A stretch of 18,864 bases of DNA from IMG/VR virus record IMGVR_UViG_2693429676_000005. One strand, written 5' to 3'. The notes under the pieces are model-generated. The model had not been told where the DNA came from. It was given only the letters and a program-made list of their open reading frames with translations, and made no database searches. Shown piece after piece: positions 700 to 16,502 of the stretch; the stretch's first letter is position 1, and each line of letters starts with the position of its first letter. Origin of the DNA: a virus (lineage: Duplodnaviria > Heunggongvirae > Uroviricota > Caudoviricetes). The translations under genes and the position numbers were made by a program.

Positions 700-1091
700 A
701 ACACACTGACATTCGTGCCGCAGTGCTGGATGCACTCGAGCAGCATGAACACGGGGCGACGCTGTTTGATGGTCGCCCCGTTGTTTTTGACGAAGAGGAT
801 TTTCCTGCGATCGCGGTTTATCTGACGGATGCAGAGTATACCGGTGAAGAGCTGGATGCAGATACCTGGCGGGCCACACTGCATATTGAGGTGTTTTTAC
901 CGGCACAGGTACCTGATTCGGAGCTCGATCAGTGGATGGAAAGCCGGATTTATCCGGCGATGACTGCGATCCCTGCACTGGCAGGACTGATTACCACGAT
1001 GGTTACGCAGGGCTATGAGTATCGTCGTGATGACGATATGGCGTTATGGAGCTCTGCGGATCTGACTTATTCCATTACATACGAGATGTGA
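696..1091 (+). CDS. U: minor tail protein U (tail terminator)
   Basis: 131-aa [20 protein letters not shown]...[13 protein letters not shown], near-identical along its length to recalled lambda U. Confidence 0.93.
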
Positions 1092-1098
1092 GGACGAT

Positions 1099-1851: not shown

Positions 1852-1864
1852 ACGGAGGTAATAC

Positions 1865-2296
1865 ATGTTTCTGAAAACAGAACAATTTGAATATAACGGT
1901 GTGTCTGTCACGCTTTCCGAATTGTCTGCGCTGCAGCGTATCGAGCATCTTGCCCTCCTGAAACGGCGTGCAGAACAGGCAGAATCCAGCGGCAACCTGC
2001 AGGTAAGCGTGGAAGATCTCGTCAGAACCGGCGCGTTTCTGGTGGCGATGTCCCTGTGGCATAACCATCCACAGAAAACGCAGTCACCGTCAATGAATGA
2101 GGCCGTGATGAAGATAGAGCAGGAAGTGCTCACCACCTGGCCTGCCGATGCCATTGCCCGGGCGGAAGACGTGGTGTTGTGCCTGTCCGGGATGATCGAA
2201 GCTGTTCGTCCGGATACTGATATTACTGAAGTGGCGAAAAATAACACGCTGACTGATGATGATTTTTCTGCGGGAAAGTCTTCGACGGCGAGCTGA
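1865..2296 (+). CDS. G: tail assembly chaperone G
   Basis: 143-aa ORF, MFLKTEQFEYNGVSVTLSELSALQRIEHLALLKRRAEQAE..., matches recalled lambda G. Slippery heptamer GGGAAAG lies at 2272-2278 near its 3' end. Confidence 0.9.
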   Translation: MFLKTEQFEYNGVSVTLSELSALQRIEHLALLKRRAEQAESSGNLQVSVEDLVRTGAFLVAMSLWHNHPQKTQSPSMNEAVMKIEQEVLTTWPADAIARAEDVVLCLSGMIEAVRPDTDITEVAKNNTLTDDDFSAGKSSTAS

Positions 2297-2736
2297 ACTT
2301 TGCCCTCAGACTGGCGCGTGAGATGGGGAGACCCGACTGGCGCGCCATGCTTGCCGGGATGACATCCACCGAATATGCCGACTGGCGCCGTTTTTACCGC
2401 ACGCATTATTTTCAGGATACCCAGCTGGATATGCATTTTTCCGGGCTGACGTACGCTGTACTCAGCCTGTTTTTTTGCGATCCGGATATGCATCCCTCTG
2501 ATTTCAGTCTGCTTGTCCCCCGGCATGAGGAAGAGCAGGTGGAGAGGCCGGATGAGGACAAAATGCTGATGCAGAAAGCGGCAGGACTTGCCGGAGGCGT
2601 CCGGTTCGGTGGGGACGGAGGGCGCGATATTTTATCGTCTGCGGATGTGGCGGATGTCATGGTGGATGATGCCGCATTAATGATGGCTTCAGCGGGGATT
2701 CCGGGAGGTGTGAGATATGTCCCAGCCGGTTGGTGA
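2272..2736 (+). CDS. T: tail assembly protein T, made as a G-T fusion by -1 programmed frameshift
   Basis: Frame 1 is open from the slippery site and reads KVFDGELNFALRLAREMGRPDWRAMLAGMTSTEYADW..., matching recalled lambda T. It has no start codon or RBS of its own until M at 2323, and is -1 relative to G. Confidence 0.8.
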   Translation, partial: GKVFDGELNFALRLAREMGRPDWRAMLAGMTSTEYADWRRFYRTHYFQDTQLDMHFSGLTYAVLSLFFCDPDMHPSDFSLLVPRHEEEQVERPDEDKMLMQKAAGLAGGVRFGGDGGRDILSSADVADVMVDDAALMMASAGIPGGVRYVPAGW

Positions 2737-5307
2737 TCTTGTTATTGACCTGAGTCTGGATGCTGTCCGTTTCGATGAGCAGATGAGCCGGGTAAGGCGT
2801 CATTTTTCAGGTCTGGATACCGACGCCAGAAAAACCGCCAGTGCTGTTGAACAGGGCCTGAGCCGCCAGGCGCTGGCTGCACAAAAAGCCGGGATTTCCG
2901 TCGGGCAGTATAAAGCGGCCATGCGAACCCTGCCCGCACAGTTTACGGATATCGCCACGCAGCTTGCCGGTGGTCAGAATCCCTGGCTGATCCTGCTGCA
3001 ACAGGGCGGTCAGGTGAAGGACTCCTTCGGCGGGATGATCCCCATGTTCAGGGGGCTTGCCGATGCGATCACCCTGCCGATGGTCGGGGTCACCTCGCTG
3101 GCGGTGGCGACAGGTGCACTGGTGTACGCCTGGTACCAGGGAGATTCCACGCTTTCAGCGTTTAATAAAACCCTGGTTCTTTCCGGTAATCAGTCCGGAC
3201 TGACTGCCGATCGTATGCTGACTCTCTCAAGAGCCGGGCAGGCAGCAGGGCTGACGTTTAACCAGGCGAGAGAGTCACTGGCAGCCCTGGTGAATGCCGG
3301 TGTGCGTGGTGGTGAACAGTTTGATGCCATCAACCAGAGTGTCGCGCGTTTTGCGTCTGCATCCGGTGTGGAGGTGGATAAAGTCGCTGAAGCCTTCGGG
3401 AAGCTGACCACTGACCCGACGTCGGGACTGATGGCGATGGCGCGCCAGTTCCGTAACGTGACGGCAGAGCAGATTGCGTATGTTGCACAGCTGCAGCGTT
3501 CCGGAGACGAGGCCGGGGCATTGCAGGCGGCGAACGATATCGCCACGAAAGGCTTTGATGAGCAGACCCGTCGCCTGAAAGAAAACATGGGAACACTGGA
3601 GACCTGGGCGGATAAAACAGGGAAGGCATTCAAATCGATGTGGGATGCCATTCTGGATATCGGTCGTCCGGAATCCTCAGCGGATATGCTCGCCAGTGCG
3701 CAGAAGGCATTTGATGAGGCGGATAAAAAATGGCAGTGGTACCAGAGTCGGAGCCAGCGCCGCGGTAAAACCTCCTCTTTCCGGGCCAACCTTCAGGGCG
3801 CATGGGATGACCGGGAAAATGCCCGTCTGGGTCTGGCAGCGGCAACGCTGCAGTCGGATATGGAAAAAGCCGGTGAACTGGCGGCAAGGGACAGGGCTGA
3901 GCGTGAGTCGTCACAGCTGAAGTATACCGGAGAGGCGCAGAAGGCGTATGAGCGCCTGCTGACGCCACTGGAGAAATATACCGCCCGGCAGGAAGAGCTG
4001 AATAAGGCCCTGAAAGACGGGAAAATCCTGCAGGCGGATTACAACACGCTGATGGCGTCGGCAAAAAAGGATTATGAGTCGACGCAGAAAAAGCCGTCCG
4101 GTGTGAAGGTGTCTGCCGGTGAGCGCCAGGAAGACCAGGCGCATGCAGCCCTGCTGGCGCTTGAAACTGAGCTCAGGACGCTGGAGAAGCACAGCGGTGC
4201 GAATGAAAAAATCAGCCAGCAGCGCCGTGATTTATGGAAAGCGGAAAATCAGTATGTGGTCCTGAAAGAGGCCGCCACGAAACGGCAGTTATCTGAGCAG
4301 GAAAAATCCCTGCTGGCCCATGAGAAAGAAACGCTGGAGTACAAACGCCAGCTGGCTGAGCTGGGCGACAAGATTGAACACCAGAAACGGCTGAATGAGC
4401 TGGCACAGCAGGCGGCGCGGTTTGAACAGCAGCAGAGCGCGAAGCAGGCGGCAATCAGCGCAAAAGCCCGCGGACTCACCGACCGTCAGGCGCAGCGGGA
4501 GTCGGAAGAGCAGCGCCTTCGTGAGGTGTACGGTGATAATCCGGCTGCGCTGGCGAAGGCCACATCTGCACTGAAGAACACCTGGTCTGCGGAGGAGCAG
4601 CTTCGTGGAAGCTGGATGGCCGGGATGAAGTCCGGCTGGGGCGAGTGGGCGGAAAGTGCGACGGACAGTTTTTCGCAGGTTAAAAACGCGGCCACGCAGA
4701 CCTTTGACGGTATTGCACAGAATATGGCAGCGATGCTGATCGGCAGCGAACAGAACTGGCGTGGTTTCACCCGTTCTGTGCTGTCCATGCTGACAGAGAT
4801 TTTTCTGAAGCAGGCGATGGTGGGGATAGTCGGGAGTATCGGCAGCGCCATTGGCGGTGCTTTCGGTGGTGGTGCGTCTGCCTCCACGGGGACGGCCATT
4901 CAGGCTGCGGCGGCGAACTTCCATTTCGCGACCGGGGGATTTACGGGGACGGGGGGTAAATATGAACCTGCGGGGATTGTTCATCGCGGGGAGTTTGTCT
5001 TCACGAAGGAGGCGACCAGCCGGATTGGTGTCGGCAATCTGTACCGCCTGATGCGGGGCTATGCGGAAGGTGGTTATGTCGGCGGTGCCGGAAGTCCGGC
5101 GCAGATGCGGCGGGNNNNNNNNNNNNNNNNNNNNNAGGCATTAATTTTAATCAGAACAATCACGTGGTGATTCAGAACGACGGCCCCAACGGGCGGGCAG
5201 GGCCGCAGCTGATGAAAGCGGTGTATGAGATGGCCCGCAAGGGGGCACAGGATGAACTCCGGCTGCAGTTGCGTGATGGCGGTATGTTATCAGGGAGCGG
5301 TGGATGA
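2717..5307 (+). CDS. H: tail tape measure protein H (interrupted by a 21-N scaffold gap at 5115-5135)
   Basis: Long ORF starting MSQPVGDLVIDLSLDAVRF; start overlaps the T stop. After the N run the protein continues in another frame (GINFNQNNHVVIQNDG...LRDGGMLSGSGG) to TGA at 5305-5307, which overlaps the M start. The frame change means the N-run length is not the true gap length. Confidence 0.88.
5115..5135. other. scaffold gap (21 N) inside H
   Basis: Run of n in the sequence; reading frame differs on the two sides. Confidence 0.95.
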
Positions 5308-5633
5308 AAACCTTTCGCTGGAAAGTGAAGCCGGATATGGAGGTGAACTCGCAGCCATCGGTGCGTGAAGTGCGTTTTGGTGACGGGTACTCACAGCGTA
5401 TGGCGGCAGGGCTGAATGCTGACCTGAAAACATACAGGGTGACGCTTTCCGTGACCCGGGAGGAGGCCCGGCATCTGGAAGCGTTCCTGGCAGAGCACGG
5501 TGGCTGGAAGGCATTTTTGTGGAAGCCACCCTATGCATACCGGCAGATAAAGGTGACCTGTGCCGGGTGGTCTGCGCGGGTCGGGATGTTGCGCGTTGAG
5601 TTCAGCGCGGAGTTTAAGCAGGTGGTGAACTGA
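5304..5633 (+). CDS. M: minor tail protein M
   Basis: 109-aa ORF, MKTFRWKVKP...RVEFSAEFKQVVN, matches recalled lambda M. ATG overlaps H stop (ATGA). Confidence 0.93.
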   Translation: MKTFRWKVKPDMEVNSQPSVREVRFGDGYSQRMAAGLNADLKTYRVTLSVTREEARHLEAFLAEHGGWKAFLWKPPYAYRQIKVTCAGWSARVGMLRVEFSAEFKQVVN

Positions 5634-6331
5634 TGCAGGATATTCGCGAAGAAAGTCTGAACGAGTCGGTTAAGTCAGAGCAGTCACCGCGGGTGGTACT
5701 CTGGGAAATCGACCTGACGGTACAGGGTGGTGAGCGGTATTTTTTCTGTAATGAGCTGAATGAAAAAGGGGAGCCGGTCACCTGGCAGGGGCGTAAGTAT
5801 GAGGCATACCCGATTGACGGCAGCGGCTTTGAGATGAACGGCCGGGGCAGCAGTGCCAGACCGTCGCTGACGGTGTCCAATCTGTTCGGTCTGGTCACCG
5901 GGATGGCGGAAGACCTGCAGAGTCTGGTGGGGGCCACGGTGGTCCGCCGCCGGGTGTATGCCCGTTTTCTGGATGCGGTGAATTTCGTTGCGGGCAATCC
6001 GGAGGCGGACCCGGAGCAGGAGCTGAGTGACCGCTGGGTGGTGGAGCAGATGTCGCAGCTGACAGCCATGACGGCCTCGTTTGTGCTGGCTACACCGACC
6101 GAGACGGACGGGGCGCTGTTTCCCGGTCGCATCATGCTGGCGAACACCTGTATGTGGGATTACCGGGGAGATGAATGCGGGTATAACGGTCCTGCGGTGG
6201 CGGATGAGTTCGACAACCCCACCACGGATATCCGTAAGGACAGATGCAGCAAGTGCATGCGCGGGTGTGAACTGCGCAGGAATGTCGGCAATTTTGGCGG
6301 TTTCCTTTCCATTAATAAACTTTCGCAGTAA
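5633..6331 (+). CDS. L: minor tail protein L (tail tip, Fe-S cluster cysteines)
   Basis: 232-aa ORF, MQDIREESLNE...NVGNFGGFLSINKLSQ, matches recalled lambda L, including the C-terminal cysteine cluster (CMWDYRGDECGY...CSKCMRGC). Confidence 0.93.
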   Translation: MQDIREESLNESVKSEQSPRVVLWEIDLTVQGGERYFFCNELNEKGEPVTWQGRKYEAYPIDGSGFEMNGRGSSARPSLTVSNLFGLVTGMAEDLQSLVGATVVRRRVYARFLDAVNFVAGNPEADPEQELSDRWVVEQMSQLTAMTASFVLATPTETDGALFPGRIMLANTCMWDYRGDECGYNGPAVADEFDNPTTDIRKDRCSKCMRGCELRRNVGNFGGFLSINKLSQ

Positions 6332-6341
6332 ATCCCGGTTT

Positions 6342-7085
6342 ATGACACAGACTGAATCAGCGATTCTGGCACATGCCCGGCGGTGTGCGCCTGCGGAGTC
6401 GTGCGGCTTCGTGATAAGCACGCCGGAGGGGGAGCGGTATATCCCTTGTGTGAATATTTCCGCAGAGCCGGAGGCGTATTTTCGTATCGCACCGGAAGAC
6501 TGGCTGCGGGCAGAGATGCAGGGGGAGATTGTGGCACTGGTCCACAGTCATCCCGGTGGGCTGCCCTGGCTGAGCGAGGCTGACCGGCGGTTGCAGATAA
6601 AAAGCGCACTGCCCTGGTGGTTGGTCTGCCGGGGTGACATTCACAAATTCCGCTGTGTGCCACATCTGACAGGACGGCGCTTTGAGCACGGGGTGACGGA
6701 CTGTTACACGCTGTTCCGGGATGCTTATCATCTGGCGGGGACTGAAATGCCGGATTTTCATCGCGAGGATGACTGGTGGCGCAACGGTCAGAACCTTTAC
6801 CTGGACAATATGGCGGTCACCGGCTTTTACCGGGTGCCCCTGTCCTCTGCACAGGCGGGCGATATTCTGCTGTGCTGCTTTGGTGCTTCGGTACCGAACC
6901 ATGCCGCCATTTACTGCGGCAACGGTGAGCTGCTTCACCATCTGCCTGAACAACTGAGTAAACGGGAGAGGTATTCCGAAAAATGGCAACGACGAACGCA
7001 TTCAGTCTGGCGTCACCGCCACTGGCACGCATCTGCCTTCACGGGGATTTACAACGATTTGGCCGCCGCCTCAGCCTGTATGTGA
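6342..7085 (+). CDS. K: tail tip assembly protein K (JAMM/MPN plus NlpC/P60 domains)
   Basis: The ORF-track frame is open from 6081, but the lambda-K-like N-terminus MTQTESAILAHARRCAPAESCGF starts at ATG 6342, just after the L stop. JAMM motif HSHPGGLPWLSEAD (H-x-H-x7-S-x2-D) is visible, and an NlpC/P60-like Cys/His pair (GVTDCYTLF ... NHAAIY). 3' end overlaps I by about 100 nt. Confidence 0.85.
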   Translation: MTQTESAILAHARRCAPAESCGFVISTPEGERYIPCVNISAEPEAYFRIAPEDWLRAEMQGEIVALVHSHPGGLPWLSEADRRLQIKSALPWWLVCRGDIHKFRCVPHLTGRRFEHGVTDCYTLFRDAYHLAGTEMPDFHREDDWWRNGQNLYLDNMAVTGFYRVPLSSAQAGDILLCCFGASVPNHAAIYCGNGELLHHLPEQLSKRERYSEKWQRRTHSVWRHRHWHASAFTGIYNDLAAASACM

Positions 7086-7663
7086 ACACGGCAGCGGAAG
7101 CCATTCGCGCCCTGTCGATGCAGATGCCGGGCTTTCGCCGTCAGATGAACGAAGGCTGGTACCAGATACGTATTGCCGGTTATGACACGGCACCGGAGGC
7201 GGTGTACGCCCGTCTTCACGAACAGCTGGGTGAGGGAACGGTCATCCACATTGTGCCGCGACTGGCCGGGGCCGGAAAGGGTGGACTGCAGATTGTGCTG
7301 GGGGCGGCAGCCATCGTGGGCTCTTTCTTCACTGCCGGGGCATCAATGGCGTTATGGGGTTCAGCCCTGGCAGCCGGTGGTTTTTCTGCCACCACGATGC
7401 TGTTTTCACTTGGAGCCAGCATGATTCTGGGCGGTGTGGCCCAGATGCTGGCCCCGAAGGCAAAAACACCGGATTACCGCGCAACGGATAACGGCAGACA
7501 GAACACGTACTTTTCCTCACTGGATAACATGATTGCCCAGGGGAACCCGATGCCGGTGCCTTACGGGGAAATGCTGGTTGGCTCCCGCCGTATATCCCAG
7601 GACATCAGCACCCGTGATGAAGGCGGGGGCGGAAAGGTCGTGGTTATCGGGCGGCAGGGGTAA
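6983..7663 (+). CDS. I: tail tip assembly protein I
   Basis: 226-aa ORF; ARICLHGDLQRFGRR...YQIRIAGYD...NTYFSSLDNMIAQGN...VVVIGRQG matches recalled lambda I. Confidence 0.9.
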   Translation: MATTNAFSLASPPLARICLHGDLQRFGRRLSLYVNTAAEAIRALSMQMPGFRRQMNEGWYQIRIAGYDTAPEAVYARLHEQLGEGTVIHIVPRLAGAGKGGLQIVLGAAAIVGSFFTAGASMALWGSALAAGGFSATTMLFSLGASMILGGVAQMLAPKAKTPDYRATDNGRQNTYFSSLDNMIAQGNPMPVPYGEMLVGSRRISQDISTRDEGGGGKVVVIGRQG

Positions 7664-7671
7664 AAAGAATA

Positions 7672-7767
7672 AAAAAATCCCGCAGTGATCGCGGACAGGA
7701 ACTGCGGGAGAGTTACGAAGATTAAGTGTAAGGAATTATTCTTATATCACGACAAAAAAATTAACGC
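7672..7767 (-). ncRNA. candidate small RNA (about 95 nt) in the I-J intergenic insert
   Basis: - strand promoter (-35 TTCACA, 16-bp spacer, perfect -10 TATAAT at 7779-7774) followed about 100 nt downstream by the intrinsic terminator at 7679-7708. No ATG-initiated ORF in the interval. Prediction from sequence only. Confidence 0.35.
7679..7708 (-). terminator. intrinsic terminator for leftward transcription (hairpin then U-tract)
   Basis: Stem CCCGCAGT (7679-7686) pairs with ACTGCGGG (7701-7708). On the - strand the hairpin is followed by TTTTTTTATTCTTTTT (complement of 7661-7678). Confidence 0.6.
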
Positions 7768-7773
7768 AGAGAA

Positions 7774-7801
7774 ATTATACGCGCCACAGTCAGTTTGTGA
7801 A
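7774..7801 (-). promoter_or_regulatory. sigma70-type promoter on - strand
   Basis: - strand reads TTCACA (7801-7796), 16 nt, TATAAT (7779-7774). Confidence 0.5.
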
Positions 7802-7874
7802 AATGTGAAGATATTCAGAATTTTTATGCCATTACCGGTTTTAACCAACAGGATTATCGGTGGGCATGAAAGAA

Positions 7875-7902
7875 AACCCCGGTATCTGCTGATACCGGGG
7901 TT
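7875..7902. terminator. GC-rich perfect hairpin with T-rich flanks on both strands (bidirectional terminator-like)
   Basis: AACCCCGGTATC / tgct / GATACCGGGGTT, 12-bp stem. Followed by TCTCTTT on + and TTTTCTTTC on -. Confidence 0.45.
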
Positions 7903-8006
7903 TCTCTTTAGCATGGCAGAAATGTGTTTCATGCTTTTCGGGCGAAGGATATCCGACTTCTGTACGGAATGGCAAGTGGCGGTTAATTTATTCAGGGGAA
8001 GGCTGT

Positions 8007-10635
8007 ATGGGAAAAGGTGGCGGTAAGGCACACACGCCTCGTGAGGCGAAGGATAATCTCAAATCCACGCAGATGATGAGCGTGATTGATGCGATTGGTG
8101 AGGGACTGATAGAAGGTCCGGTGAAGGGACTGCAGAGTATCCTGGTGAACAAAACCCCGCTGACGGACACGGACGGTAATCCCGTGATACACGGTGTGAC
8201 GGCGGTCTGACGCGCCGGGGAGCAGGAGCAGACACCACCGGAAGGCTTTGAGTCCTCCGGTGCTGAAACCGGACTGGGCGTGGAAGTGACGAAGGCAAAA
8301 CCGGTGACGCGCACCATTACGTCCGCGAACATTGACCGCCTGCGGGTTACCTTCGGGGTGCAGTCACTGGTGCAGACCACGTCAAAGGGTGACCGAAACC
8401 CGACATCCGTCCGCCTGCTGATTCAGTTACAGCGTAACGGTAACTGGGTGACAGAAAAGGATGTCACCATTAACGGCAAGACCACCTCGCAGTTTCTGGC
8501 GTCGGTGATTCTGGATAATCTGCCTCCCCGTCCTTTTAACATCCGGATGGTCCGGGAGACAGCGGACAGCACCACGGACCAGCTGCAGAATAAGACGCTG
8601 TGGTCGTCATACACCGAAATCATCGATGTGAAACAGTGCTACCCGAACACGGCCATTGTGGGGCTGCAGGTGGATGCGGAGCAGTTCGGCGGCCAGCAGA
8701 TGACGGTGAACTACCATATCCGCGGTCGCATCATCCAGGTGCCGTCAAACTATGACCCGGAAAAACGCACGTACAGTGGTATCTGGGACGGTAGCCTGAA
8801 ACCGGCATACAGCAACAATCCGGCCTGGTGTCTGTGGGACATGCTGACTCACCCGCGCTACGGCATGGGAAAACGTCTGGGGGCGGCGGATGTGGACAAG
8901 TGGGCGCTGTATGCCATCGGGCAGTACTGCGACCAGACGGTCCCGGATAGTTTCGGGGAGACCGAGCCGCGGATGACCTTCAATGCGTACCTGGCACAAC
9001 AGCGTAAGGCATGGGACGTGCTCAGTGATTTCTGCTCGGCGATGCGCTGTATGCCGGTATGGAACGGCCAGACGCTGACGTTTGTTCAGGACCGCCCGTC
9101 GGATGTGGTGTGGCCGTACACCAACAGCGATGTGGTGGTGGATGATAACGGCGTGGGTTTCCGCTACAGCTTCAGTGCCCTGAAGGACCGGCACACGGCG
9201 GTGGAGGTGAATTATACCGACCCGCAGAACGGCTGGCAGACCTCCACGGAACTGGTGGAAGACCCGGAAGCCATACTGCGCTACGGACGCAACCTGCTGA
9301 AGATGGACGCGTTCGGCTGTACCAGCCGCGGTCAGGCCCACCGTGCCGGACTGTGGGTGATAAAGACCGAACTGCTGGAAACGCAGACGGTGGATTTCAC
9401 GCTCGGGTCTCAGGGGCTGCGGCACACACCCGGTGACATCATTGAAATCTGTGATAACGACTATGCCGGGACCCTGACCGGCGGACGTGTCCTGTCCATT
9501 GATGCTGCCACCCGCACTCTGACGCTGGACCGTGAAGTGACACTTCCGGAGACCGGTGCCGCCACGGTGAACCTGATTAACGGCAGCGGTAAGCCGGTGA
9601 GTGTGGACATCACCGAACACCCCGCGCCGGACCGGATACAGGTCAGTACCCTGCCTGATGGTGTGGAGACATACGGGGTGTGGGGACTCTCCCTGCCGTC
9701 ACTGCGCCGTCTCCTGTTCCGCTGTGTCTCCGTCCGGGAAAACACGGACGGCACCTTTGCCATCACGGCGGTGCAGCACGTACTGGAAAAAGAAGCCATC
9801 GTGGATAACGGTGCCCGCTTTGAGCCGCAGTCAGGTTCCCTGAACAGCGTCATCCCACCGGCAGTGCAGCACCTGACGGCCAGTATCTGGCGCAGGCGAA
9901 ATGGGACACGCCGCGGGTGGTGAAGGGTGTGCGCTTCAGTCTGCGCCTGACCAGTGGTAAGGGAACGGATGCCAGACTGGTGACCACCGCCATCACCGCA
10001 GACACGGAGCACCGTTTCAGCGGCCTGCCGCTCGGGGAATACACCCTGACGGTGCGGGCGATAAACAGCTATGGCCAGCAGGGTGAACCTGCCACCACCA
10101 CCTTCCGGATTGCCGCACCGGCAGCACCGTCGCGGATTGAGCTGACGCCGGGCTATTTTCAGATAACCGCCACGCCGCATCTTGCGGTTTATGATCCGAC
10201 GGTACAGTTTGAGTTCTGGTTCTCGGAAAAGCGGATTGCGGATATCAGGCAGGTTGAAACCACAGCACGCTATCTTGGCACGGCGCTGTACTGGATAGCC
10301 GCCAGTATCAATATCAAACCGGGCCATGATTATTACTTTTATATCCGCAGTGTGAACACCGTTGGCAAATCGGCATTCGTGGAGGCTGTTGGTCAGCCGA
10401 GTGATGATGCATCCGGTTATCTGGATTTTTTCAAAGGCGAGATAGGGAAAACCCATCTGGCTCAGGAGCTGTGGACGCAGATTGATAACGGTCAGCTTGC
10501 GCCTGACCTGGCTGAAATCAGGACGTCCATTACGGATGTCAGCAATGAAATCACGCAGACCGTCAATAAGAAACTGGAAGACCAGAGTGCGGCAATTCAG
10601 CAGATACAGAAGGTTCAGGTTGATACAAATAATAA
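8007..10635 (+). pseudogene. J: tail tip / host-specificity protein J, 5' and central part, disrupted by in-frame TGA (8208-8210) and a frameshift near 9875
   Basis: MGKGGGKAHTPREAKDNLKSTQ... matches recalled lambda J N-terminus. The same frame resumes after the TGA (RAGEQEQTPPEGFESSG...TRTITSANIDRL) and runs to 9923. Homology then continues in frame 2 from about 9875 ([20 protein letters not shown], cf. lambda GEYQVLARWDTPKVVKGV). Central FN3-like region present ([16 protein letters not shown]). Confidence 0.85.
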
Positions 10636-11078
10636 NCCCGACGGTACAGTTTGAGTTCTGGTTCTCGGAAAAGCGGATTGCGGATATCAGGCAGGTTGAA
10701 ACCAGCGCCCGCTATCTTGGCACGGCGCTGTACTGGATAGCCGCCAGTATCAATATCAAACCGGGCCATGATTATTATTTTTACGTTCGCAGTGTGAACA
10801 CCGTTGGCAAATCGGCATTCGTGGAGGCTGTCGGTCGGGCGAGCGATGATGCGGAAGGTTACTTGGATTTTTTCAAAGGAGAGATAGGGAAAACACATCT
10901 GGCTCAGGAGCTGTGGACGCAGATTGATAACGGTCAGCTTGCGCCTGACCTGGCTGAAATCAGGACGTCCATTACGGATGTCAGCAATGAAATCACGCAG
11001 ACTGTCAATAAGAAACTGAAAGACCAGAGTGCGGCAATCCAGCAGATACAGAAGGTTCAGGTTGATACAAATAATAAT
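10196..11078. repeat. two tandem, about 96%-identical copies (10196-10635 and 10638-11078) of a J internal segment, separated by a single N
   Basis: Both copies start CCGACGGTACAGTTTGAGTTCTGGTTCTCGGAAAAGCGGATTGCGGATATCAGGCAGGTTGAAACC and end GTTGATACAAATAATAA, with scattered substitutions. Probably an assembly join of two alleles. Confidence 0.8.
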
Positions 11079-11900
11079 CTGAACAGCATGTGGGCTGTGA
11101 AGCTGCAACAGATGAAGGACGGACGCCTTTATATTGCGGGTATCGGTGCCGGTATTGAGAATACGCCAGCAGGAATGCAGAGTCAGGTGCTGCTGGCGGC
11201 AGACAGGATTGCGATGATTAATCCTGCGAATGGCAACACAAAGCCGATGTTTGTTGGTCAGGGCGATCAGATATTCATGAACGACGTGTTCCTGAAACGC
11301 CTGACGGCTCCCACCATTACCAGCGGCGGTAATCCTCCGGCATTTTCCCTGACACCGGACGGAAAACTGACCGCTAAAAATGCAGATATCAGTGGCAGTG
11401 TGAATGCGAACGCCGGGACGCTCAACAATGTCACAATTAATGAGAACTGTCAGATTAAGGGGAAACTGTCAGCCAACCAGATTGAAGGCGATATAGTCAA
11501 AACAGTGGGTAAGGCTTTTCCGCGGGACTCCCGGGCACCGGAGCGGTGGCCATCAGGGACCATTACCGTCAGGATTTATGACGATCAGCCTTTTGACAGG
11601 CAAATTGTTATTCCGGCGGTGGCATTCAGCGGCGCTAAACATGAGCGGGAGAATAACGATATTTATTCGTCATGCCGCCTGATAGTACGGAAAAACGGTG
11701 CTGAAATTTATAACCGTACCGCGCTGGATAATACGCTGATTTACAGTGGTGTTATTGATATGCCAGCTGGTCGCGGCCACATGACGCTGGAGTTTTCGGT
11801 GTCAGCATGGCTGGTGAATAACTGGTATCCCACAGCAAGTATCAGCGATTTGCTGGTTGTGGTGATGAAGAAAGCCACCGCAGGCATCAGTATCAGCTGA
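10638..11900 (+). CDS. J: J 3' portion, allele A (receptor-binding C-terminus ending ...[10 protein letters not shown])
   Basis: Frame 0 from 10638 reads [21 protein letters not shown]...[54 protein letters not shown]..., which matches the recalled lambda J C-terminal region. Stop at 11898-11900. Confidence 0.7.
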
Positions 11901-11919
11901 ATTTTATAACCCATATACG

Positions 11920-11946
11920 GGCGCCAGAAATGGCGCCTTTTTTATT
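11920..11946 (+). terminator. intrinsic terminator after J allele A
   Basis: GGCGCC / agaaat / GGCGCC followed by TTTTTTTATT. Confidence 0.65.
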
Positions 11947-11967
11947 GCAGAAAAGCGAGAGGTAATT

Positions 11968-12014
11968 ATGCGTAAAGTTTGTGCAGCCATTTTGTCCGCA
12001 GCCATCTGTCTGTC
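11968..12014 (+). other. lom: lom 5' fragment (allele A), cut off by NNNN at 12015-12018
   Basis: ATGCGTAAAGTTTGTGCAGCCATTTTGTCCGCAGCCATCTGTCTGTC encodes MRKVCAAILSAAICL, the same signal-peptide start as the complete lom at 12995, with 3 nucleotide differences. Confidence 0.6.
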
Positions 12015-12018
12015 NNNN
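12015..12018. other. scaffold join (4 N) between lom 5' fragment and J allele B
   Basis: NNNN joins two unrelated sequence contexts (lom start, then J internal sequence). Confidence 0.9.
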
Positions 12019-12924
12019 AAACTGGAAGACCAGAGTGCGGCAATTCAGCAGATACAGAAGGTTCAGGTTGATACAAATAATAACCTGAACAGCATGTGGG
12101 CTGTGAAGCTGCAGCAGATGCAGGACGGACGCCTTTATATCGCGGGTATTGGTGCCGGTATTGAGAACACCCCTGACGGCATGCAGAGTCAGGTGCTGCT
12201 GGCGGCGGACAGGATTGCGATGGTTAATCCTGCGAATGGCAACACAAAACCGATGTTTGTTGGTCAGGGCGATCAGATATTCATGAACGACGTGTTCCTG
12301 AAACGCCTGACGGCCCCCACCATTACCAGCGGTGGAAATCCATCGGCATTTTCCCTGACTCCGGACGGAAAGCTGACCGCTAAAAATGCGGATATCAGTG
12401 GCAGTGTGAATGCGAACGCCGGGACGCTCAACAATGTCACGGTAAATGAAAACTGTACGATTAAGGGCATGCTGGAGGCGACTCAGGTCAGAGGTGACTT
12501 CGTTAAAGCTGTATCCAAATCATTTCCGAAACAGGCTGGTACGTGGGGTAACACGGAAACACCAAACGGGACGGTTACAGTCACCATAAGCGATGATCAT
12601 AACTTTGACCGCCAGATTATTATTCCGCCCATTATTTTTAACGGTATAGCGTATGACGATCCGGGGAGCGGAAATAACCCAGGAGGCACGCGATACACGG
12701 GTTATGGTTTTGAAGTTCGCAAAAACGGCGTATTAATCGCATCCAGAGAAACTAAAGGTGCCATTCCCGGTAGTTACAGTGCAGTTATTGATATGCCTAG
12801 TGGTGGTGGTAGCGTCACTCTGGAGTTTAAGATTTTCCAGAAAGGCAATCAGGGGGCAGGCAATATCACCGACTGTACGGTGATTGTGACCAAAAAAGCG
12901 GCTTCCGGCATCAGTATTCGTTGA
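12019..12924 (+). CDS. J: J 3' portion, allele B (distinct receptor-binding C-terminus ending ...KKAASGISIR); likely the true continuation of J from 10635
   Basis: 12019-12083 is identical to 10571-10635, so the two pieces overlap as unitigs. Downstream reads [24 protein letters not shown]...[53 protein letters not shown]..., then a C-terminal about 140 aa unrelated to allele A. Stop at 12922-12924. Confidence 0.75.
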   Translation, partial: KLEDQSAAIQQIQKVQVDTNNNLNSMWAVKLQQMQDGRLYIAGIGAGIENTPDGMQSQVLLAADRIAMVNPANGNTKPMFVGQGDQIFMNDVFLKRLTAPTITSGGNPSAFSLTPDGKLTAKNADISGSVNANAGTLNNVTVNENCTIKGMLEATQVRGDFVKAVSKSFPKQAGTWGNTETPNGTVTVTISDDHNFDRQIIIPPIIFNGIAYDDPGSGNNPGGTRYTGYGFEVRKNGVLIASRETKGAIPGSYSAVIDMPSGGGSVTLEFKIFQKGNQGAGNITDCTVIVTKKAASGISIR

Positions 12925-12946
12925 AATATTTATAACCCCAATAAAT

Positions 12947-12973
12947 GGCGTCAGGAATGACGCCTTTTTTATT
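12947..12973 (+). terminator. intrinsic terminator after J allele B
   Basis: GGCGTCA / ggaa / TGACGCC followed by TTTTTTATT. Confidence 0.65.
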
Positions 12974-12994
12974 GCAGAAAAGCGAGAGGTAATT

Positions 12995-13594
12995 ATGCGT
13001 AAAGTTTGTGCAGCCATTTTGTCCGCAGCCATTTGCCTGGCCGTATCCGGTGCGCCTGCATGGGCGTCTGAACATCAGTCCACACTGAGCGCGGGGTATC
13101 TTCATGCCCGTACGAACGCTCCCGGCAGCGATAATCTGAACGGGATTAACGTGAAATACCGTTATGAGTTTACGGACGCGCTGGGGCTGATTACGTCCTT
13201 CAGTTATGCCAATGCTGAGGATGAGCAAAAAACGCACTACAGCGATACCCGCTGGCATGAAGATTCCGTGCGTAACCGCTGGTTCAGCGTGATGGCGGGG
13301 CCGTCTGTACGCGTGAATGAATGGTTCAGCGCGTATGCGATGGTGGGTGTGGCTTACAGCCGTGTGTCGACTTTCTCCGGGGATTATCTCCGCGTAACTG
13401 ACAACAAGGGGAAAACGCACGATGTGCTGACCGGAAGTGATGACGGTCGCCACAGCAACACGTCTCTGGCGTGGGGGGCTGGCGTGCAGTTTAACCCGAC
13501 CGAATCCGTGACCATTGACCTTGCTTATGAAGGTTCCGGTAGTGGTGACTGGCGAACGGATGCATTTATTGTTGGTATCGGATACCGTATCTGA
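12995..13594 (+). CDS. lom: outer membrane protein Lom (Ail/Lom/PagC family beta-barrel; prophage moron)
   Basis: 199-aa ORF with signal peptide MRKVCAAILSAAICLAVSGAPAWA. Motifs GINVKYRYEFTD, SVMAGPSVRVNEWFSAYAMVGVAYSR and C-terminal AYEGSGSGDWRTDAFIVGIGYRI match recalled lambda Lom. Position after J as in lambda. Confidence 0.9.
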   Translation: MRKVCAAILSAAICLAVSGAPAWASEHQSTLSAGYLHARTNAPGSDNLNGINVKYRYEFTDALGLITSFSYANAEDEQKTHYSDTRWHEDSVRNRWFSVMAGPSVRVNEWFSAYAMVGVAYSRVSTFSGDYLRVTDNKGKTHDVLTGSDDGRHSNTSLAWGAGVQFNPTESVTIDLAYEGSGSGDWRTDAFIVGIGYRI

Positions 13595-13698
13595 CAACAG
13601 ACGCCGATTTATCTTCTGTAAATATTGTTATGATACGCAGGTTCATCCACCTTATGGGGTGAACTGCGTTTGAGGAAACGTAAAGTTACACTGTCCTG

Positions 13699-13735
13699 AA
13701 GCCCGTGGCGTCACTGCTGCGGGCTTTTTTTATTG
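13699..13735 (+). terminator. putative intrinsic terminator after lom
   Basis: AAGCCCG ... CGGGCTT stem with 14-nt loop, followed by TTTTTTTATT. Confidence 0.45.
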
Positions 13736-13745
13736 GTGGAAAAGT

Positions 13746-16502
13746 ATGACAGTAAAAATTTCTGGCGTGCTTAAAGATGGCACAGGAAAACCAGTACAGA
13801 ACTGCACCATTGTGCTGAAGGCCAGACGAACCAGCAGCACGATGGTGGTGAACACGGTGGCCTCTGAAAATCCGGATGAAGCCGGACGTTACAGCATGGA
13901 TGTTGAGCATGGTCAGTACAGCGTCACCCTGCTGGTTGAAGGTTTTCCGCCTTCACATGCCGGGACCATTACCGTCTATGAAGGTTCCAGACCAGGTACG
14001 CTGAATGATTTTCTCGGTGCCATGACGGAGGATGATGTCCGACCGGAGGCACTGCGCCGCTTTGAGCAGATGGTGGAAGAGGTGTCACGTAACGCCTCCG
14101 CGGTTGCACAGAATACGGCAGCCGCGAAAAAATCAGCCAGCGAGGCGGCAACTCATGCAACCGATGCTGCAGCCTCAGCACGTGCCGCCAGCACGTCAGC
14201 CGGACAGGCCGCGTCGTCGGCTCAGTCAGCGTCTTCCAGCGCAGGAACGGCATCGACAAAGGCCCGTGAAGCAGCAAAAAGTGCTGCTGCAGAGTCATCA
14301 AAAAGCGCGGCAGCTACCAGCGCCAGTGCCGCGAAAACGTCAGAAACGAATGCCGCAGCATCACAAAAATCGGCAGCCACTTCTGCATCCACAGCGACCA
14401 CGAAGGCGTCAGAAGCTGCCACCTCGGCACGGGGTGCGGCGGCCTCAAAAGAGGCAGCGAAATCTTCAGAAACGAATGCATCATCGAGTGCCAGTAGTGC
14501 AGCTTCCTCGGCAACGGCGGCAGGAAATTCCGCGAAGGCGGCAAAAACGTCCGAGACGAACGCTAAGTCTTCTGAAACAGCAGCGGGACAGAGCGCCTCA
14601 GCTGCGGCAGGTTCAAAAACAGCGGCTGCATTATCTGCCAGTGCCGCGTCAACAAGTGCCGGGCAGGCCTCAGCCAGTGCCACCGCCGCCGGAAAATCGG
14701 CAGAAAGCGCCGCATCATCCGCTTCAACAGCCACAACGAAGGCTGGCAAAGCCACTGAGCAAGCCACTGCAGCAGCGAGGTCTGCTTCTGCAGCAAAAAC
14801 CTCTGAAACAAATGCAAAGACTTCAGCAGACAATGCTGCTTCCTCTAAGGCAGCAGCCGCATCGTCAGCCAGTTCAGCGGCGTCATCGGCATCATCTGCG
14901 TCTGCTTCAAAAGATGAGGCGACCAGACAAGCGTCAGCAGCGAAAGGTAGTGCCACGACAGCAACAACGAAAGCATCAGAGGCGGCAGGCAGTGCGACGG
15001 CTGCATCTCAGAGCAAAGTTGCTGCTGAATCCGCGGCAACGCGCGCCGAGACAGCAGCAAAACGGGCAGAGGATATTGCATCCGCCGTGGCGCTTGAGGA
15101 TGCGAGCACGACGAAAAAGGGGATAGTACAGCTCAGCAGTGCGACCAACAGCACTTCCGAGTCACTGGCGGCAACGCCAAAAGCGGTTAAGGCGGTAATG
15201 GGTGAAACGAACAAGAAAGCGCCCTTAAATAGTCCTGCACTGACCGGAACGCCAACAACACCAACTGCGCGACAGGGAACGAATAATACCCAAATCGCAA
15301 GCACGGCTTTCGTTATGGCTGCGATTGCCGCCCTTGTAGATTCGTCACCTGATGCACTGAACACGCTGAACGAGCTGGCTGCGGCGCTGGGCAACGACCC
15401 GAATTTTGCGACCACCATGACTAACGCGCTTGCGGGTAAGCAACCGAAAGATGCCACCCTGACGGCGCTGGCCGGACTTACTACTGCGGCAGGCAAGTTT
15501 CCGTATTTTACGGGGAATGATGTCGCCAGCCTGGCAACCCTGACAAAAGTCGGGCGGGATATTCTTGCGAAATCGACCGTTGCTGCCGTTATCGAATACC
15601 TCGGTTTACAGGAAACGGTAAACAAGGCTGGTAACGCCGTTCAGCGTTCCGGCGATAAAATGACCGGAGAACTGAAAATTGGCACGGTGAATGCGCTGCG
15701 AATTTTCAATGATACCTTCGGTCTAATTTTCCGTCGTTCAGAAGATTTTCTTCATTTCATTCCGACGGCTGAAGGACAAGGCGAAAACGGTAATATCGGC
15801 CCATTAAGGCCATTCGCTATAAATCTGAGAACAGGTGCTATATCTGTCAGCCACGGGGCCAAAATTAAAGGAGGTCTAGCTATTGGAGCTACTGATAACG
15901 CACTGGGTGAAAACTCCATTGTTCTGGGAGATAACGACACCGGATTTAGGCAAGATGGAGATGGTATTATTAGCTTCTATTCAAATGGTTCGCGCATCGG
16001 ACATATTGATGAGTTAGGATTACATCTTTATAAAGATATTGAATCTAATGGCAGCAATTTTAGATTAAAAAGTAATTACCGCCACCACATTACATTCGCC
16101 AACGAAGACGGAAGAATTCGTATGTTTTTGTGGAAAGATAACGGTGGTGATGGTGTTCATATTAATAACGGTTCAGATGGTGGTGGTGATTTCATTTTTA
16201 AAACAGATGGGGGATTTGCGCTGGGAAGTGGTGCGCAAGTTGCGTCTAGTGGCGATATTTATGGTTCAGTGTGGGAAAACAACTGGTTAAGCACATGGCT
16301 GCATAATCATGTCGTTCGGGATATTCGTCTTGGCAGCATTGAATATAAAAACGTATGGCGCGACTACGGCTTTGGCGATGCGTCAGGTTATGTTTTAACA
16401 GCCGCAATTAACAGCAATGCGGATGATATTGTCGACACTGTTGCCAGAAGGCCAATTCAGAAATTGATTGGGGGAATATGGTACAACGTGGGGAGTGTTT
16501 AA
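13746..16502 (+). CDS. stf: side tail fibre protein Stf (constant N-terminal part plus invertible variable C-terminal part)
   Basis: 918-aa ORF. N-terminus [28 protein letters not shown]...[33 protein letters not shown] is near-identical to recalled lambda Stf, followed by a long Ala/Ser/Thr-rich repetitive shaft (KTSETNA repeats). The region after the crossover site at 15589-15614 is the exchangeable tip. Confidence 0.9.
15589..15614. other. left crossover site for invertase (gix/pix/hix-like, 26 bp), inside stf
   Basis: TTATCGAATACC TC GGTTTACAGGAA. The reverse complement of the right site (18505-18530) is TTATCTAAAACC TC GGTTTACGAGAA, giving 21/26 identity in inverted orientation, two 12-bp half-sites around a 2-bp core. 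Matches the recalled gix pattern. Confidence 0.7.

What the first reader, a model, noticed from the sequence alone, without database searches (positions are those of the whole stretch)
7664..8006. AT-rich non-coding insert between I and J with a strong leftward promoter and terminator: candidate prophage small RNA
The I-J gap here is about 340 bp and AT-rich, against about 60 bp in my recollection of lambda. On the - strand there is a near-consensus sigma70 promoter (TTCACA, 16 bp, TATAAT at 7779-7774), then about 95 nt without any ATG-started ORF, then a hairpin (7708-7679) and a U7 tract. That is the signature of a discrete small transcript running antisense to the tail operon. A second perfect 12-bp hairpin lies at 7875-7902. 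Phage-encoded regulatory and anti-sRNAs have been described in lambdoid prophages of pathogenic E. coli; I cannot tell from sequence alone whether this is one of them.
Basis: partly seen in the sequence, partly recalled or inferred. Interest (0 to 1): 0.65.

Follow-up and report, generated by a model that had tools for sequence, protein, structure and literature searches.

The report
Divergent pasB prophage small RNA gene
The AT-rich insert between tail genes I and J carries an unannotated, strongly diverged copy of pasB, a prophage small RNA already shown in enteropathogenic E. coli to bind Hfq and pair with host mRNAs. The kind of element is known, but this version has a different target-recognition stretch.

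Summary
The insert is a pasB-family small RNA gene. PasB is an 83-nt, northern-verified, Hfq-dependent sRNA of EPEC E2348/69, encoded antisense between the same two tail genes (PMC8550237).

- **Family membership:** A covariance model built from 13 other alleles, without the window, hits window 7671-7769 (- strand) at 91 bits, E 4e-15. That is its only hit in the window, and phage lambda has none.
- **What is conserved:** The promoter is 94% identical to that of E2348/69 PasB and the terminator 82%. The RNA body is only 60% identical.
- **Missed by the published survey:** The 2026 PasB survey used blastn with word size 28. Run that way here, the 83-nt PasB query does not find this allele.
- **Different targets predicted:** PasB's predicted pairing with its top RIL-seq partners is not retained by the window allele.
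- **Distribution:** The allele is at least 99% identical in 636 records of the 5,426-genome complete E. coli set, including CFT073, and is annotated in none of the listed ones.
- **Second hairpin:** It sits where lambda has its own I-J hairpin, so it is not part of the sRNA gene.

No expression data exist for this allele. Verdict: a new member of a known kind, of moderate interest.

The parts
7671..7767 (-). Predicted primary transcript of the pasB-like sRNA, 97 nt from G7767 to the last U at 7671. The position equivalent to the published PasB 5' end is 7754, which gives about 84 nt.
   Evidence: Covariance model R1, built from 13 non-window alleles, hits 7671-7769 at 91.1 bits, E 4.3e-15, over its full length. 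Alignments to E2348/69 PasB are. PasB coordinates come from PMC8550237 table S6.
7774..7779 (-). -10 hexamer TATAAT. The ATAAT part is invariant in all 11 aligned alleles.
7796..7801 (-). -35 hexamer TTCACA with a 16-nt spacer. It varies among alleles (TTTACA, TTTGCA, TCCGCA).
7804..7819 (.). Palindromic box, TGTGA-AGATAT-TCAGA on the + strand. It matches the CRP core TGTGA-N6-TCACA at 9 of 10 positions and is centred 44.5 nt upstream of the predicted +1. It is the most conserved element of the cassette and is a candidate regulator-binding site.
   Evidence: The box is invariant in 11 alleles. It is present once in all 14 loci then held, and upstream of each extra tandem cassette in L006 and L010. 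The consensus match alone is not rare: 4 matches in the window against 0.58 expected.
7763..7770 (-). Invariant CTGCGTTA spanning the predicted transcription start, followed by a U7 run (7760-7754).
7735..7743 (-). AAGAAUAAU, three consecutive A-R-N triplets. This is a candidate contact for the distal face of Hfq. An AA.AA. pattern is kept in all alleles.
   Evidence: Read from the sequence. The ARN rule is from PMC4104026. The Hfq contact is inferred.
7716..7734 (-). Putative seed, UCCUUACACUUAAUCUUCG. UCCUUA and AUCUUC are shared with other alleles, and the 4-6 nt between them differ from allele to allele.
   Evidence: Alignment A4. In E2348/69 PasB the equivalent stretch is the one predicted to pair with 6 of 8 top RIL-seq partners. 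Zhu et al. place the PasB seed just upstream of the terminator.
7671..7709 (-). Rho-independent terminator: 9-bp stem (7709-7701 / 7686-7678), 14-nt loop, U7 (7677-7671). It ends 8 nt from the stop codon of I. The 3' arm plus U-tract, CTGCGGGATTTTTT, is invariant in every allele.
7874..7903 (.). Second hairpin, a 13-bp perfect stem with U-rich tails on both strands. It is the positional counterpart of lambda's own I-J hairpin and is not part of the sRNA gene.
   Evidence: The lambda hairpin AACCGCC-TGCG-GGCGGTT plus TTGTC lies in its 60-bp I-J gap. Short-form loci carry a different hairpin at the same place, with one compensatory T-A to C-G change.
7835..8006 (.). 'Long-form' leader module between the sRNA promoter and the J start codon. 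It is nearly invariant wherever it occurs, and its function is unknown.
   Evidence: It is at least 99% identical in 1442 of 1451 records, whichever sRNA allele lies next to it. It is absent from E2348/69 and other short-form loci.
6983..7663 (+). Tail assembly gene I, the upstream neighbour.
   Evidence: Pfam PF06805 Lambda_tail_I, E 6e-17. CFT073 annotation.
8007..11900 (+). Tail tip gene J, the downstream neighbour. In this window it is a pseudogene, with an in-frame TGA at 8208-8210 and two frame changes.
   Evidence: tblastn of CFT073 J runs in frames 3, then 2, then 3. ORF list. Pfam FNIII-A_GpJ and Phage-tail_3.

Best explanation
The insert is a self-contained 'moron': a small RNA gene with its own sigma-70 promoter and its own intrinsic terminator. 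It sits antisense between tail genes I and J of a lambdoid prophage that is decaying in this window.

The gene is a strongly diverged allele of pasB. In a lysogen, where the late operon is silent, host RNA polymerase would transcribe about 97 nt from the - strand, possibly trimmed to about 84 nt. The U7 tail and terminator hairpin, together with an A-R-N stretch, would load the RNA on Hfq. The single-stranded stretch UCCUUACACUUAAUCUUCG just upstream of the terminator would then pair with host or prophage mRNAs to change their translation or stability.

The central seed nucleotides differ from those of E2348/69 PasB, so this allele is predicted to recognise a different set of targets. An invariant palindromic box upstream of the promoter suggests transcription is controlled by a host regulator, with CRP the best consensus match.

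- **Shown here:** gene anatomy, homology, the conservation pattern and the distribution.
- **Shown by others, for the E2348/69 allele only:** expression, Hfq dependence and RNA partners.
- **Inferred:** expression of this allele, its targets, its regulator and any 5' processing.
For: - **Synteny and homology:** E2348/69 PasB lies on the - strand between I and J. Model R1, built without the window, hits 7671-7769 at 91.1 bits, E 4.3e-15. That is the only hit in the window, and lambda has none.
- **Conservation pattern typical of an sRNA gene:** against E2348/69 the promoter segment is 94% identical, the body 60% and the terminator 82%. The -10 ATAAT, CTGCGTTA, AUCUUC and CTGCGGGAUUUUUU are invariant.
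- **Not coding:** there is no ATG and no ORF of 20 aa or more inside the transcript. Alleles differ by 1-, 5- and 6-nt indels, which would break any reading frame.
- **Published data on PasB (PMC8550237):** a northern band of the predicted size; Hfq-dependent stability (main text), with large negative fold changes for pasB in the wt vs delta-hfq table (-6.8 and -2.4); 37 RIL-seq interactions; second position in at least 98.7% of chimeras; higher in overnight static LB.
- **Seed region:** for 6 of 8 top RIL-seq partners the best local duplex with E2348 PasB uses nt 31-60. napF gives -25.8 kcal/mol against -17.0 +/- 2.0 for shuffled bodies. The window allele scores at or worse than shuffled bodies on 7 of 8 partners.
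- **Moron architecture:** lambda has only 60 bp and a hairpin at this junction.
- **Retention:** the allele is at least 99% identical in 636 records. It is 100% identical to CFT073 although the flanks are only about 93-96% identical and J is broken here.
Against: - **No expression data for this allele:** I found no transcript, TSS or Hfq-binding data for it. A full-text search for its sequence and for the PasB probe returned nothing.
- **5' end disagrees:** the published PasB 5' end, taken from read coverage, lies 13-15 nt downstream of the +1 predicted from the -10. Either the RNA is processed or the promoter assignment is slightly off.
- **Weak statistics on their own:** the promoter and terminator consensus counts are not significantly above shuffles. 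Outside the terminator the fold is weak, with z -2.1 overall. The terminator stem never varies, so there is no covariation support.
- **CRP reading is weak:** the box is centred at -44.5, not at a canonical -41.5 or -61.5. Matches of this quality occur four times in the window. The box can also be read as TGAA-N4-TTCA, which from memory resembles Cra or LacI-family operators.
- **Target divergence is a prediction:** the 'different targets' conclusion rests on duplex energies for eight partners. It is not a measurement.
Confidence: 0.8

Rival explanations
1. The RNA works mainly in cis. It is perfectly complementary to the I-J intercistronic part of the late tail transcript, so during lytic growth it would pair with that mRNA. 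Alternatively, its convergent transcription would collide with late transcription. Either way it would tune J expression or mRNA processing. This does not exclude a trans role.
For: The only significant partner inside the window is the + strand of 7709-7749, which is perfect antisense at up to -44 kcal/mol. The best other site reaches -16.8, against a mean of -21.5 for shuffled seeds. The gene always lies antisense at the same junction.
Against: - PasB was detected in lysogens, where the late operon is off, and ligates to 37 trans partners on Hfq.
- The allele is kept intact, 100% identical to CFT073, in this window where J is already a pseudogene. A cis role in tail production cannot explain that.
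- Lambda manages without it.
Confidence: 0.12
2. The RNA is a sponge or anti-sRNA that titrates a core-genome sRNA, as AgvB does for GcvB, rather than regulating mRNAs directly.
For: It is prophage-encoded and has an A-R-N stretch like the distal-face motif described for AgvB and AsxR. Like those RNAs it has a variable region next to a conserved 3' end.
Against: - There is no Rfam AgvB or AsxR match, even at permissive thresholds.
- The locus differs: AgvB and AsxR lie at the PR' moron site and are 51-60 nt long.
- In the parts of the RIL-seq table that I read, PasB partners are mRNAs, UTRs or intergenic RNAs. No core sRNA is among them.
Confidence: 0.08
3. There is no functional RNA product. 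The interval is a recombination linker or transcription insulator made of terminators, and the promoter-like site is fortuitous or dead in this allele.
For: Consensus scans are not significant on their own. The region is mosaic, with boundaries inside it. No Rfam family matches.
Against: - The promoter elements and an upstream box are invariant across alleles whose bodies have diverged to 60%.
- The homologous E2348/69 gene gives an abundant Hfq-bound RNA.
- The allele is essentially invariant in 636 records.
Confidence: 0.06
4. The interval encodes a small protein. Some phage records annotate hypothetical ORFs here.
For: ORFs of 113 aa (+ strand, GTG start) and 94 aa (- strand, GTG start) span the gap. 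Phages PhiR12_5 and 1720a-02 carry 'hypothetical protein' CDSs over the homologous stretch.
Against: - Alleles differ by indels that are not multiples of three, and short-form loci lack half of these ORFs.
- The predicted transcript has no ATG, and neither long ORF has a convincing ribosome-binding site.
- The annotated phage ORFs differ from each other in position and length.
Confidence: 0.02

Closest known systems
PasB (pathogenicity-associated sRNA B) of EPEC E2348/69, prophage PP6, NC_011601.1 1466343-1466261. Pearl Mizrahi et al. 2021 (PMC8550237); distribution survey by Zhu, Shabalina and Storz 2026 (bioRxiv 10.64898/2026.05.13.724894).
   Same: - Same position and strand: antisense between tail genes I and J.
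- Same promoter, 94% identical over the box, -35 and -10.
- Same invariant 5' CTGCGTTA and U-run.
- Same AUCUUC motif upstream of the terminator.
- Same terminator 3' arm and U7.
- Same length when measured from the equivalent 5' end (84 nt against 83 nt).

Sources.
   Different: - The RNA body is only 60% identical. The central seed reads UCCUUACACUUAAUCUUCG instead of UCCUUCACAUUGAUCUUCA.
- The predicted pairing with PasB's RIL-seq partners is lost.
- blastn at word size 28, the setting of the published survey, gives no hit with the 83-nt PasB query. At word size 11 only the 25-nt terminator matches, covering 30% of the query.
- This allele therefore lies outside the variants described there, which differ by a few SNPs.
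- The window also has the 343-bp long form of the gap, against 240 bp in E2348/69.
Anti-sRNAs AgvB (RF02702) and AsxR (RF02703) of EHEC lambdoid prophages (Tree et al. 2014, PMC4104026)
   Same: These are also prophage 'moron' sRNAs that bind Hfq. They have a conserved 3' terminator region and a variable target-recognition region with A-R-N motifs.
   Different: They lie at a different locus, downstream of PR' and Q near stx or the lysis genes. They are shorter, at 51-60 nt. There is no sequence or covariance-model similarity. Their documented partners are core sRNAs, whereas the PasB partners that I read are mRNAs.
Lambda I-J junction (NC_001416 15445-15504)
   Same: The same gene pair flanks it, and it has a + strand hairpin with a U-rich tail just upstream of the J ribosome-binding site. 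That hairpin is the counterpart of window 7874-7903.
   Different: Lambda has 60 bp, no - strand promoter and no match to the pasB model. The pasB cassette is extra DNA inserted between the I stop codon and that hairpin.

Membership tests
PasB sRNA family | Encoded antisense in the gap between lambdoid tail genes I and J | tested here: met
   I is at 6983-7663 and J starts at 8007 (Pfam). E2348/69 PasB lies between the I and J homologues on the opposite strand. The arrangement is the same in 9 of the 10 further loci checked (J is not annotated beside the array in L010).
PasB sRNA family | Sequence and structure homology to PasB over the full length of the RNA | tested here: met
   Model R1, built from 13 alleles including E2348/69 and excluding the window, hits 7671-7769 (- strand) at 91.1 bits, E 4.3e-15, model positions 1-98 of 98. 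The homology is distant: the body is 60% identical and blastn at word 28 finds nothing.
PasB sRNA family | Own promoter and a Rho-independent terminator with a U-tract of at least 4 (the RIL-seq sRNA criterion) | tested here: met
   TTCACA-16-TATAAT, 11 of 12 matches. 9-bp stem plus U7. Both are conserved across alleles.
PasB sRNA family | Expressed as an RNA of about 83 nt whose stability depends on Hfq | not testable with these tools
   This was shown only for the E2348/69 allele (northern blot and delta-hfq RNA-seq). I found no data for this allele.
PasB sRNA family | Same seed and same targets as E2348/69 PasB | tested here: not met
   The central seed nucleotides differ. Duplex energies with the eight top RIL-seq partners are no better than for shuffled RNA, except marginally at E2348C_2648 through the 5' end, whereas PasB pairs through nt 31-60 on 6 of 8. 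This is a computational test only, and it speaks to specificity rather than to family descent.
AgvB/AsxR anti-sRNA family | Match to Rfam RF02702 or RF02703, length 51-60 nt, location in the PR' moron site | tested here: not met
   No Rfam match at gathering score in the whole window, and none among the 21 weak matches at E up to 10 in 7560-8110. The locus and length differ.
Phage 'moron' (extra DNA with its own promoter and terminator between two conserved phage genes) | Absent from the reference phage at the same junction, and flanked by its own transcription signals | tested here: met
   The lambda I-J gap is 60 bp with no model hit. The window cassette has its own promoter and terminator.
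CRP-activated promoter | TGTGA-N6-TCACA site centred at -41.5 (class II) or at -61.5 and further turns (class I) | tested here: inconclusive
   The core matches at 9 of 10 positions and is invariant across alleles and tandem cassettes. The centre is at -44.5 from the predicted +1, and matches of this quality occur 4 times in the window. PasB being higher in overnight LB than in DMEM is compatible with CRP control but not specific to it.

The most novel reading that the evidence does not exclude
The I-J junction may be a cassette-exchange hotspot for a whole series of PasB-like sRNAs. On this reading, an invariant regulator box plus promoter on one side and an invariant terminator on the other serve both as expression signals and as recombination anchors. 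Between them the seed-bearing body is swapped or diversified, and cassettes can stack in tandem. I saw two copies in STEC1585 and three in O43 RM10042.

Each prophage lineage would then rewire a different set of host mRNAs under the same environmental signal. The CFT073-type allele in this window would be an ExPEC-associated regulator with targets of its own, kept by the host after the phage has decayed.
Probability: 0.4. Interest if true: 0.55.

Novelty: new member of a known kind. Interest (0 to 1): 0.35.

Why it matters
PasB is one of the most connected accessory-genome sRNAs in the EPEC Hfq interactome, but its function is unknown. The published survey concluded that it shows little sequence diversity.

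The window shows that the same locus carries at least one common, strongly diverged allele. This allele is at least 99% identical in 636 records of the 5,426-genome complete E. coli set, including the uropathogen CFT073 and E. albertii. The survey's BLAST settings cannot detect it, and RefSeq leaves it unannotated.

If the allele is expressed, about a tenth of sequenced E. coli carry an unrecognised Hfq-dependent regulator with its own target set. The allelic series would also be a natural experiment on how a few seed nucleotides redirect an sRNA. The practical gain is modest: an annotation for a widespread gene and a clear set of experiments.

Tried and rejected
- **Rfam:** no match at gathering score in the whole window. 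At E up to 10 there were only 21 weak hits, all driven by the hairpins and none near its gathering score. The E2348/69 pasB locus and the tandem-cassette loci also gave nothing, so Rfam 15 has no PasB family.
- **AgvB/AsxR membership:** rejected, as set out in the membership test.
- **Protein-coding reading of the gap:** rejected. The ORFs are not conserved across alleles.
- **Trans target inside the window:** none beats shuffled seeds. Only the trivial antisense match stands out.
- **Full-length RNA.duplexfold on RIL-seq partners:** it produced meaningless whole-molecule 'duplexes'. I replaced it with a windowed local search.
- **Literature on this allele:** full-text searches for the seed sequence, its complement and the PasB probe found no papers. 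Searches for CFT073 or UPEC sRNA catalogues found nothing on this locus. One CFT073 Ribo-seq preprint appeared in the search results but could not be opened.
- **Species range:** a promoter-to-5'-end pattern scanned against one genome per species found only E. albertii and two short contigs in unrelated assemblies that look like E. coli phage contamination. This agrees with the published restriction to Escherichia and Shigella.
- **Genome-wide target prediction for this allele:** not possible with the tools available here.

Full report
**1. The observation**

The window is the tail region of a lambdoid prophage. ORF 6983-7663 is tail assembly protein I (Pfam Lambda_tail_I, E 6e-17). The reading frame that opens at 8007 is tip attachment protein J, and Lom follows at 12995-13594. 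The gap between I and J is 343 bp (7664-8006). GC drops to 0.36 in 7665-7834 against 0.56-0.63 on either side.

On the - strand the scan finds TTCACA (7801-7796), a 16-nt spacer and TATAAT (7779-7774), 11 of 12 matches. It also finds a terminator-like hairpin followed by a run of T. The repeat finder gives a perfect 9-bp stem, 7678-7686 / 7701-7709, and seven U follow at 7677-7671. From the predicted +1 (G7767) to the last U is 97 nt. This stretch has no ATG and no ORF of 20 aa or more inside it. The second hairpin is a perfect 13-bp stem at 7874-7886 / 7891-7903.

Taken alone these consensus matches are not statistically impressive. There were 3 promoter-like sites against 1.0 +/- 1.2 in shuffles, and the RNA folds at z = -2.1. 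The case rests on comparison with other sequences.

**2. What it is**

Rfam has nothing here, either at gathering score over the whole window or convincingly at E up to 10.

The 343 bp are 100% identical to CFT073 (NC_004431.1 1364141-1364483) and to many other E. coli genomes. Nothing is annotated there in any listed record.

The literature supplied the identification. Pearl Mizrahi et al. 2021 (PMC8550237) found five prophage sRNAs in EPEC E2348/69 by Hfq RIL-seq. One of them, PasB, is an 83-nt RNA on the - strand at NC_011601.1 1466343-1466261 in prophage PP6. That position is the I-J gap of PP6, antisense to the tail genes. The published northern probe, AATCCCGCAGTGATCGCGGAGCT, matches the window's terminator at 20 of 23 positions.

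Aligning the two loci shows the same promoter, the same first transcribed bases and the same terminator, with a diverged middle. As a test that does not depend on the window, I built a covariance model from 13 other alleles: E2348/69, eight further E. coli genomes, two phages and two stray contigs. It finds window 7671-7769 on the - strand at 91.1 bits, E 4.3e-15, over the full model. It finds nothing else in the window and nothing in lambda.

**3. Anatomy from the allele series**

I aligned eleven alleles that are 72-100% identical overall. The following elements are invariant:

- a box TTCTGA-N5-TTCACATTT, window 7804-7819 plus flanks;
- the ATAAT of the -10;
- CTGCGTTA across the predicted start;
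- a U-run;
- an AA.AA. pattern (AAGAAUAAU here, three A-R-N triplets);
- AUCUUC just upstream of the terminator;
- the terminator's 3' arm with its U-tract.

Identity to E2348/69 by segment is 94% for the promoter, 86% for the start region, 60% for the body and 82% for the terminator. The flanks do not show this divergence. The 3' end of I is 99% identical to the window in E2348/69 and in O157:H7 strain 2149, and the J start is 94-97% identical. Divergence is therefore concentrated in about 55 nt of transcribed body between conserved expression signals.

The terminator stem never varies, so it gives no covariation evidence for or against. Outside the terminator no structure is conserved, which is what one expects of a single-stranded seed region.

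**4. How it most likely works**

For the E2348/69 allele the following are published:

- a northern band of the expected size;
- Hfq-dependent stability, with large negative fold changes for pasB in the wt vs delta-hfq comparison (log2 -6.8 and -2.4);
- 37 RIL-seq interactions;
- the sRNA-typical second position in at least 98.7% of chimeras;
- higher expression in overnight static LB than in DMEM.

Its partners under that condition include E2348C_2648, the napF 5'UTR, map, yhhX, hflX, fabR, caiF and rplX.

I fetched these eight target regions and searched for the best local duplex. E2348 PasB uses nt 31-60, CUCCUUCACAUUGAUCUUC and neighbouring bases, on six of the eight.

| Partner | E2348 PasB duplex (kcal/mol) | Shuffled bodies (mean +/- sd) |
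|---|---|---|
| napF | -25.8 | -17.0 +/- 2.0 |
| caiF | -21.2 | -17.1 +/- 1.5 |
| yhhX | -23.6 | -19.8 +/- 1.6 |

This agrees with Zhu et al., who place the seed just upstream of the terminator. The window allele reads UCCUUACACUUAAUCUUCG at that place. On seven of the eight partners it scores at or worse than its own shuffled controls. On the eighth, E2348C_2648, it is only marginally better, and that duplex uses its 5' end. Its best sites are scattered rather than centred on the seed.

I therefore expect the same mechanism but a different target set. The steps would be Hfq loading through the U7 tail and the A-R-N stretch, then seed pairing, often at CU-rich/AGGA-type sites. This part is inference.

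The invariant upstream box matches the CRP core at 9 of 10 positions. It also precedes each extra cassette in the tandem arrays. Its centre is at -44.5, which is not canonical, and it can equally be read as TGAA-N4-TTCA. The regulator is therefore an open question.

**5. The rest of the gap**

Lambda's 60-bp I-J gap consists essentially of a + strand hairpin with a U-rich tail just before the J ribosome-binding site. Short-form loci such as E2348/69 have a different hairpin at the same place, CAGGCACC...GGTGCCTG followed by TTGTTTTTG. One pair in it changes from T-A to C-G between alleles. The window's 13-bp hairpin is the long-form counterpart.

It follows that the hairpin belongs to the tail operon. 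The inserted 'moron' is the roughly 170-bp pasB cassette between the I stop codon and that hairpin.

The long-form module 7835-8006 is at least 99% identical in 1442 of 1451 records, whichever pasB allele lies beside it. I have no explanation for that uniformity. A weak - strand promoter-like site (7975-7946, 9 of 12 matches) followed by the hairpin could in principle give a second small transcript. Nothing else supports this.

**6. Distribution and novelty**

In 5,426 complete E. coli genomes, 1,830 carry a relative of the sRNA gene. The table bands each record by identity to the window allele.

| Identity to the window allele | Records |
|---|---|
| at least 99% | 636 |
| 95-99% | 10 |
| 90-95% | 208 |
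| 80-90% | 146 |
| 60-80% (includes the E2348/69-like allele of O157:H7 and O25b:H4) | 838 |

One genome per species across bacteria gave only E. albertii plus two probable contaminant contigs.

The 2026 survey (bioRxiv 10.64898/2026.05.13.724894) used blastn at word size 28 with query coverage above 75%. It reported PasB variants differing by a few SNPs and called PasB the least diverse Pas sRNA. With those settings the 83-nt PasB query does not hit the window at all. At word size 11 it hits only the 25-nt terminator.

The window allele is thus a member of a known family that has escaped both annotation and the family's own census. I file it as a new member of a known kind. Two further loci carry two (STEC1585) and three (O43 RM10042) cassettes in tandem, each behind its own copy of the box. 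This suggests the junction is a hotspot for such genes. I did not pursue that at population scale.

**7. Limits**

Nothing here shows that this allele is transcribed. The 5' end is uncertain by 13 nt. The target divergence is an energy calculation on eight partners. The regulator is a consensus match.

Noticed in passing
window 8007-11900: J is a pseudogene in this window. There is an in-frame TGA at 8208-8210 (CFT073 has Trp there), and tblastn against CFT073 J runs in frame 3, then 2 (from about 9866), then 3 again (from about 10623). The prophage is therefore defective, yet the sRNA gene next to it is intact.
   Followed up: partly
window 7835-8006: The 172-bp 'long-form' leader between the sRNA promoter and J is at least 99% identical in 1442 of 1451 E. 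coli records. This holds whichever pasB allele (78-100% identical) lies beside it, and while the neighbouring coding sequences vary by 1-10%. I have no explanation for this uniformity.
   Followed up: partly
L006 208-360 (STEC1585, NZ_CP129252.1) and L010 1-311 (O43 RM10042, NZ_CP028122.1): Extra PasB-like cassettes lie in tandem upstream of the pasB allele, giving two and three cassettes respectively. In L006 and in the middle cassette of L010 each has its own TCTGA-N6-TCACATTT box and terminator. Their bodies are very different (model scores 14-41 bits). They share a motif ACUCCUUAAGGUGA.
   Followed up: partly
L012 (Parendozoicomonas haliclonae NZ_FWPT01000051.1, 460 bp) and L014 (Streptomyces flavalbus NZ_JBHTEB010000006.1, 3408 bp): Short contigs in assemblies of unrelated organisms carry E. 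coli lambdoid I-pasB-J DNA, 81% and 97% identical to the window. They are most likely contamination of those assemblies.
   Followed up: partly
window 556-14090 compared with L001 (CFT073): The window is not from CFT073. Its flanking tail genes are only about 87-95% identical to CFT073, while the I-J gap is 100% identical. The 3' end of I is closer to E2348/69 and O157:H7 (99%) than to CFT073 (96%). This is fine-scale mosaicism with a boundary at or inside the sRNA gene.
   Followed up: partly
window 13595-13745: The 150-bp gap after lom ends in a strong + strand terminator (13698-13727 plus a T-run). Its 3' arm, CTGCGGGCTTTTTTT, differs by one base from the pasB terminator arm. It could be an ordinary lom terminator or the 3' end of a UTR-derived sRNA.
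   Followed up: no
L015 415-513 (phage PhiR12_5) and L016 318-470 (phage 1720a-02): These phage records annotate 'hypothetical protein' CDSs on the tail-gene strand across the pasB homologue. They are probably over-annotations of the sRNA gene.
   Followed up: no
window 7875-7902: The simple terminator scan did not list the 13-bp hairpin on either strand, although it is followed by TTTCTCTTT on the + strand and TTTTCTTTC on the - strand. The scan's output should not be read as exhaustive.
   Followed up: no
window 1722-1737, 2709-2724, 17767-17782: Three further matches to TGTGA-N6-TCACA with one mismatch, inside or near tail genes. That makes 4 in the window against 0.58 expected by chance.
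   Followed up: no
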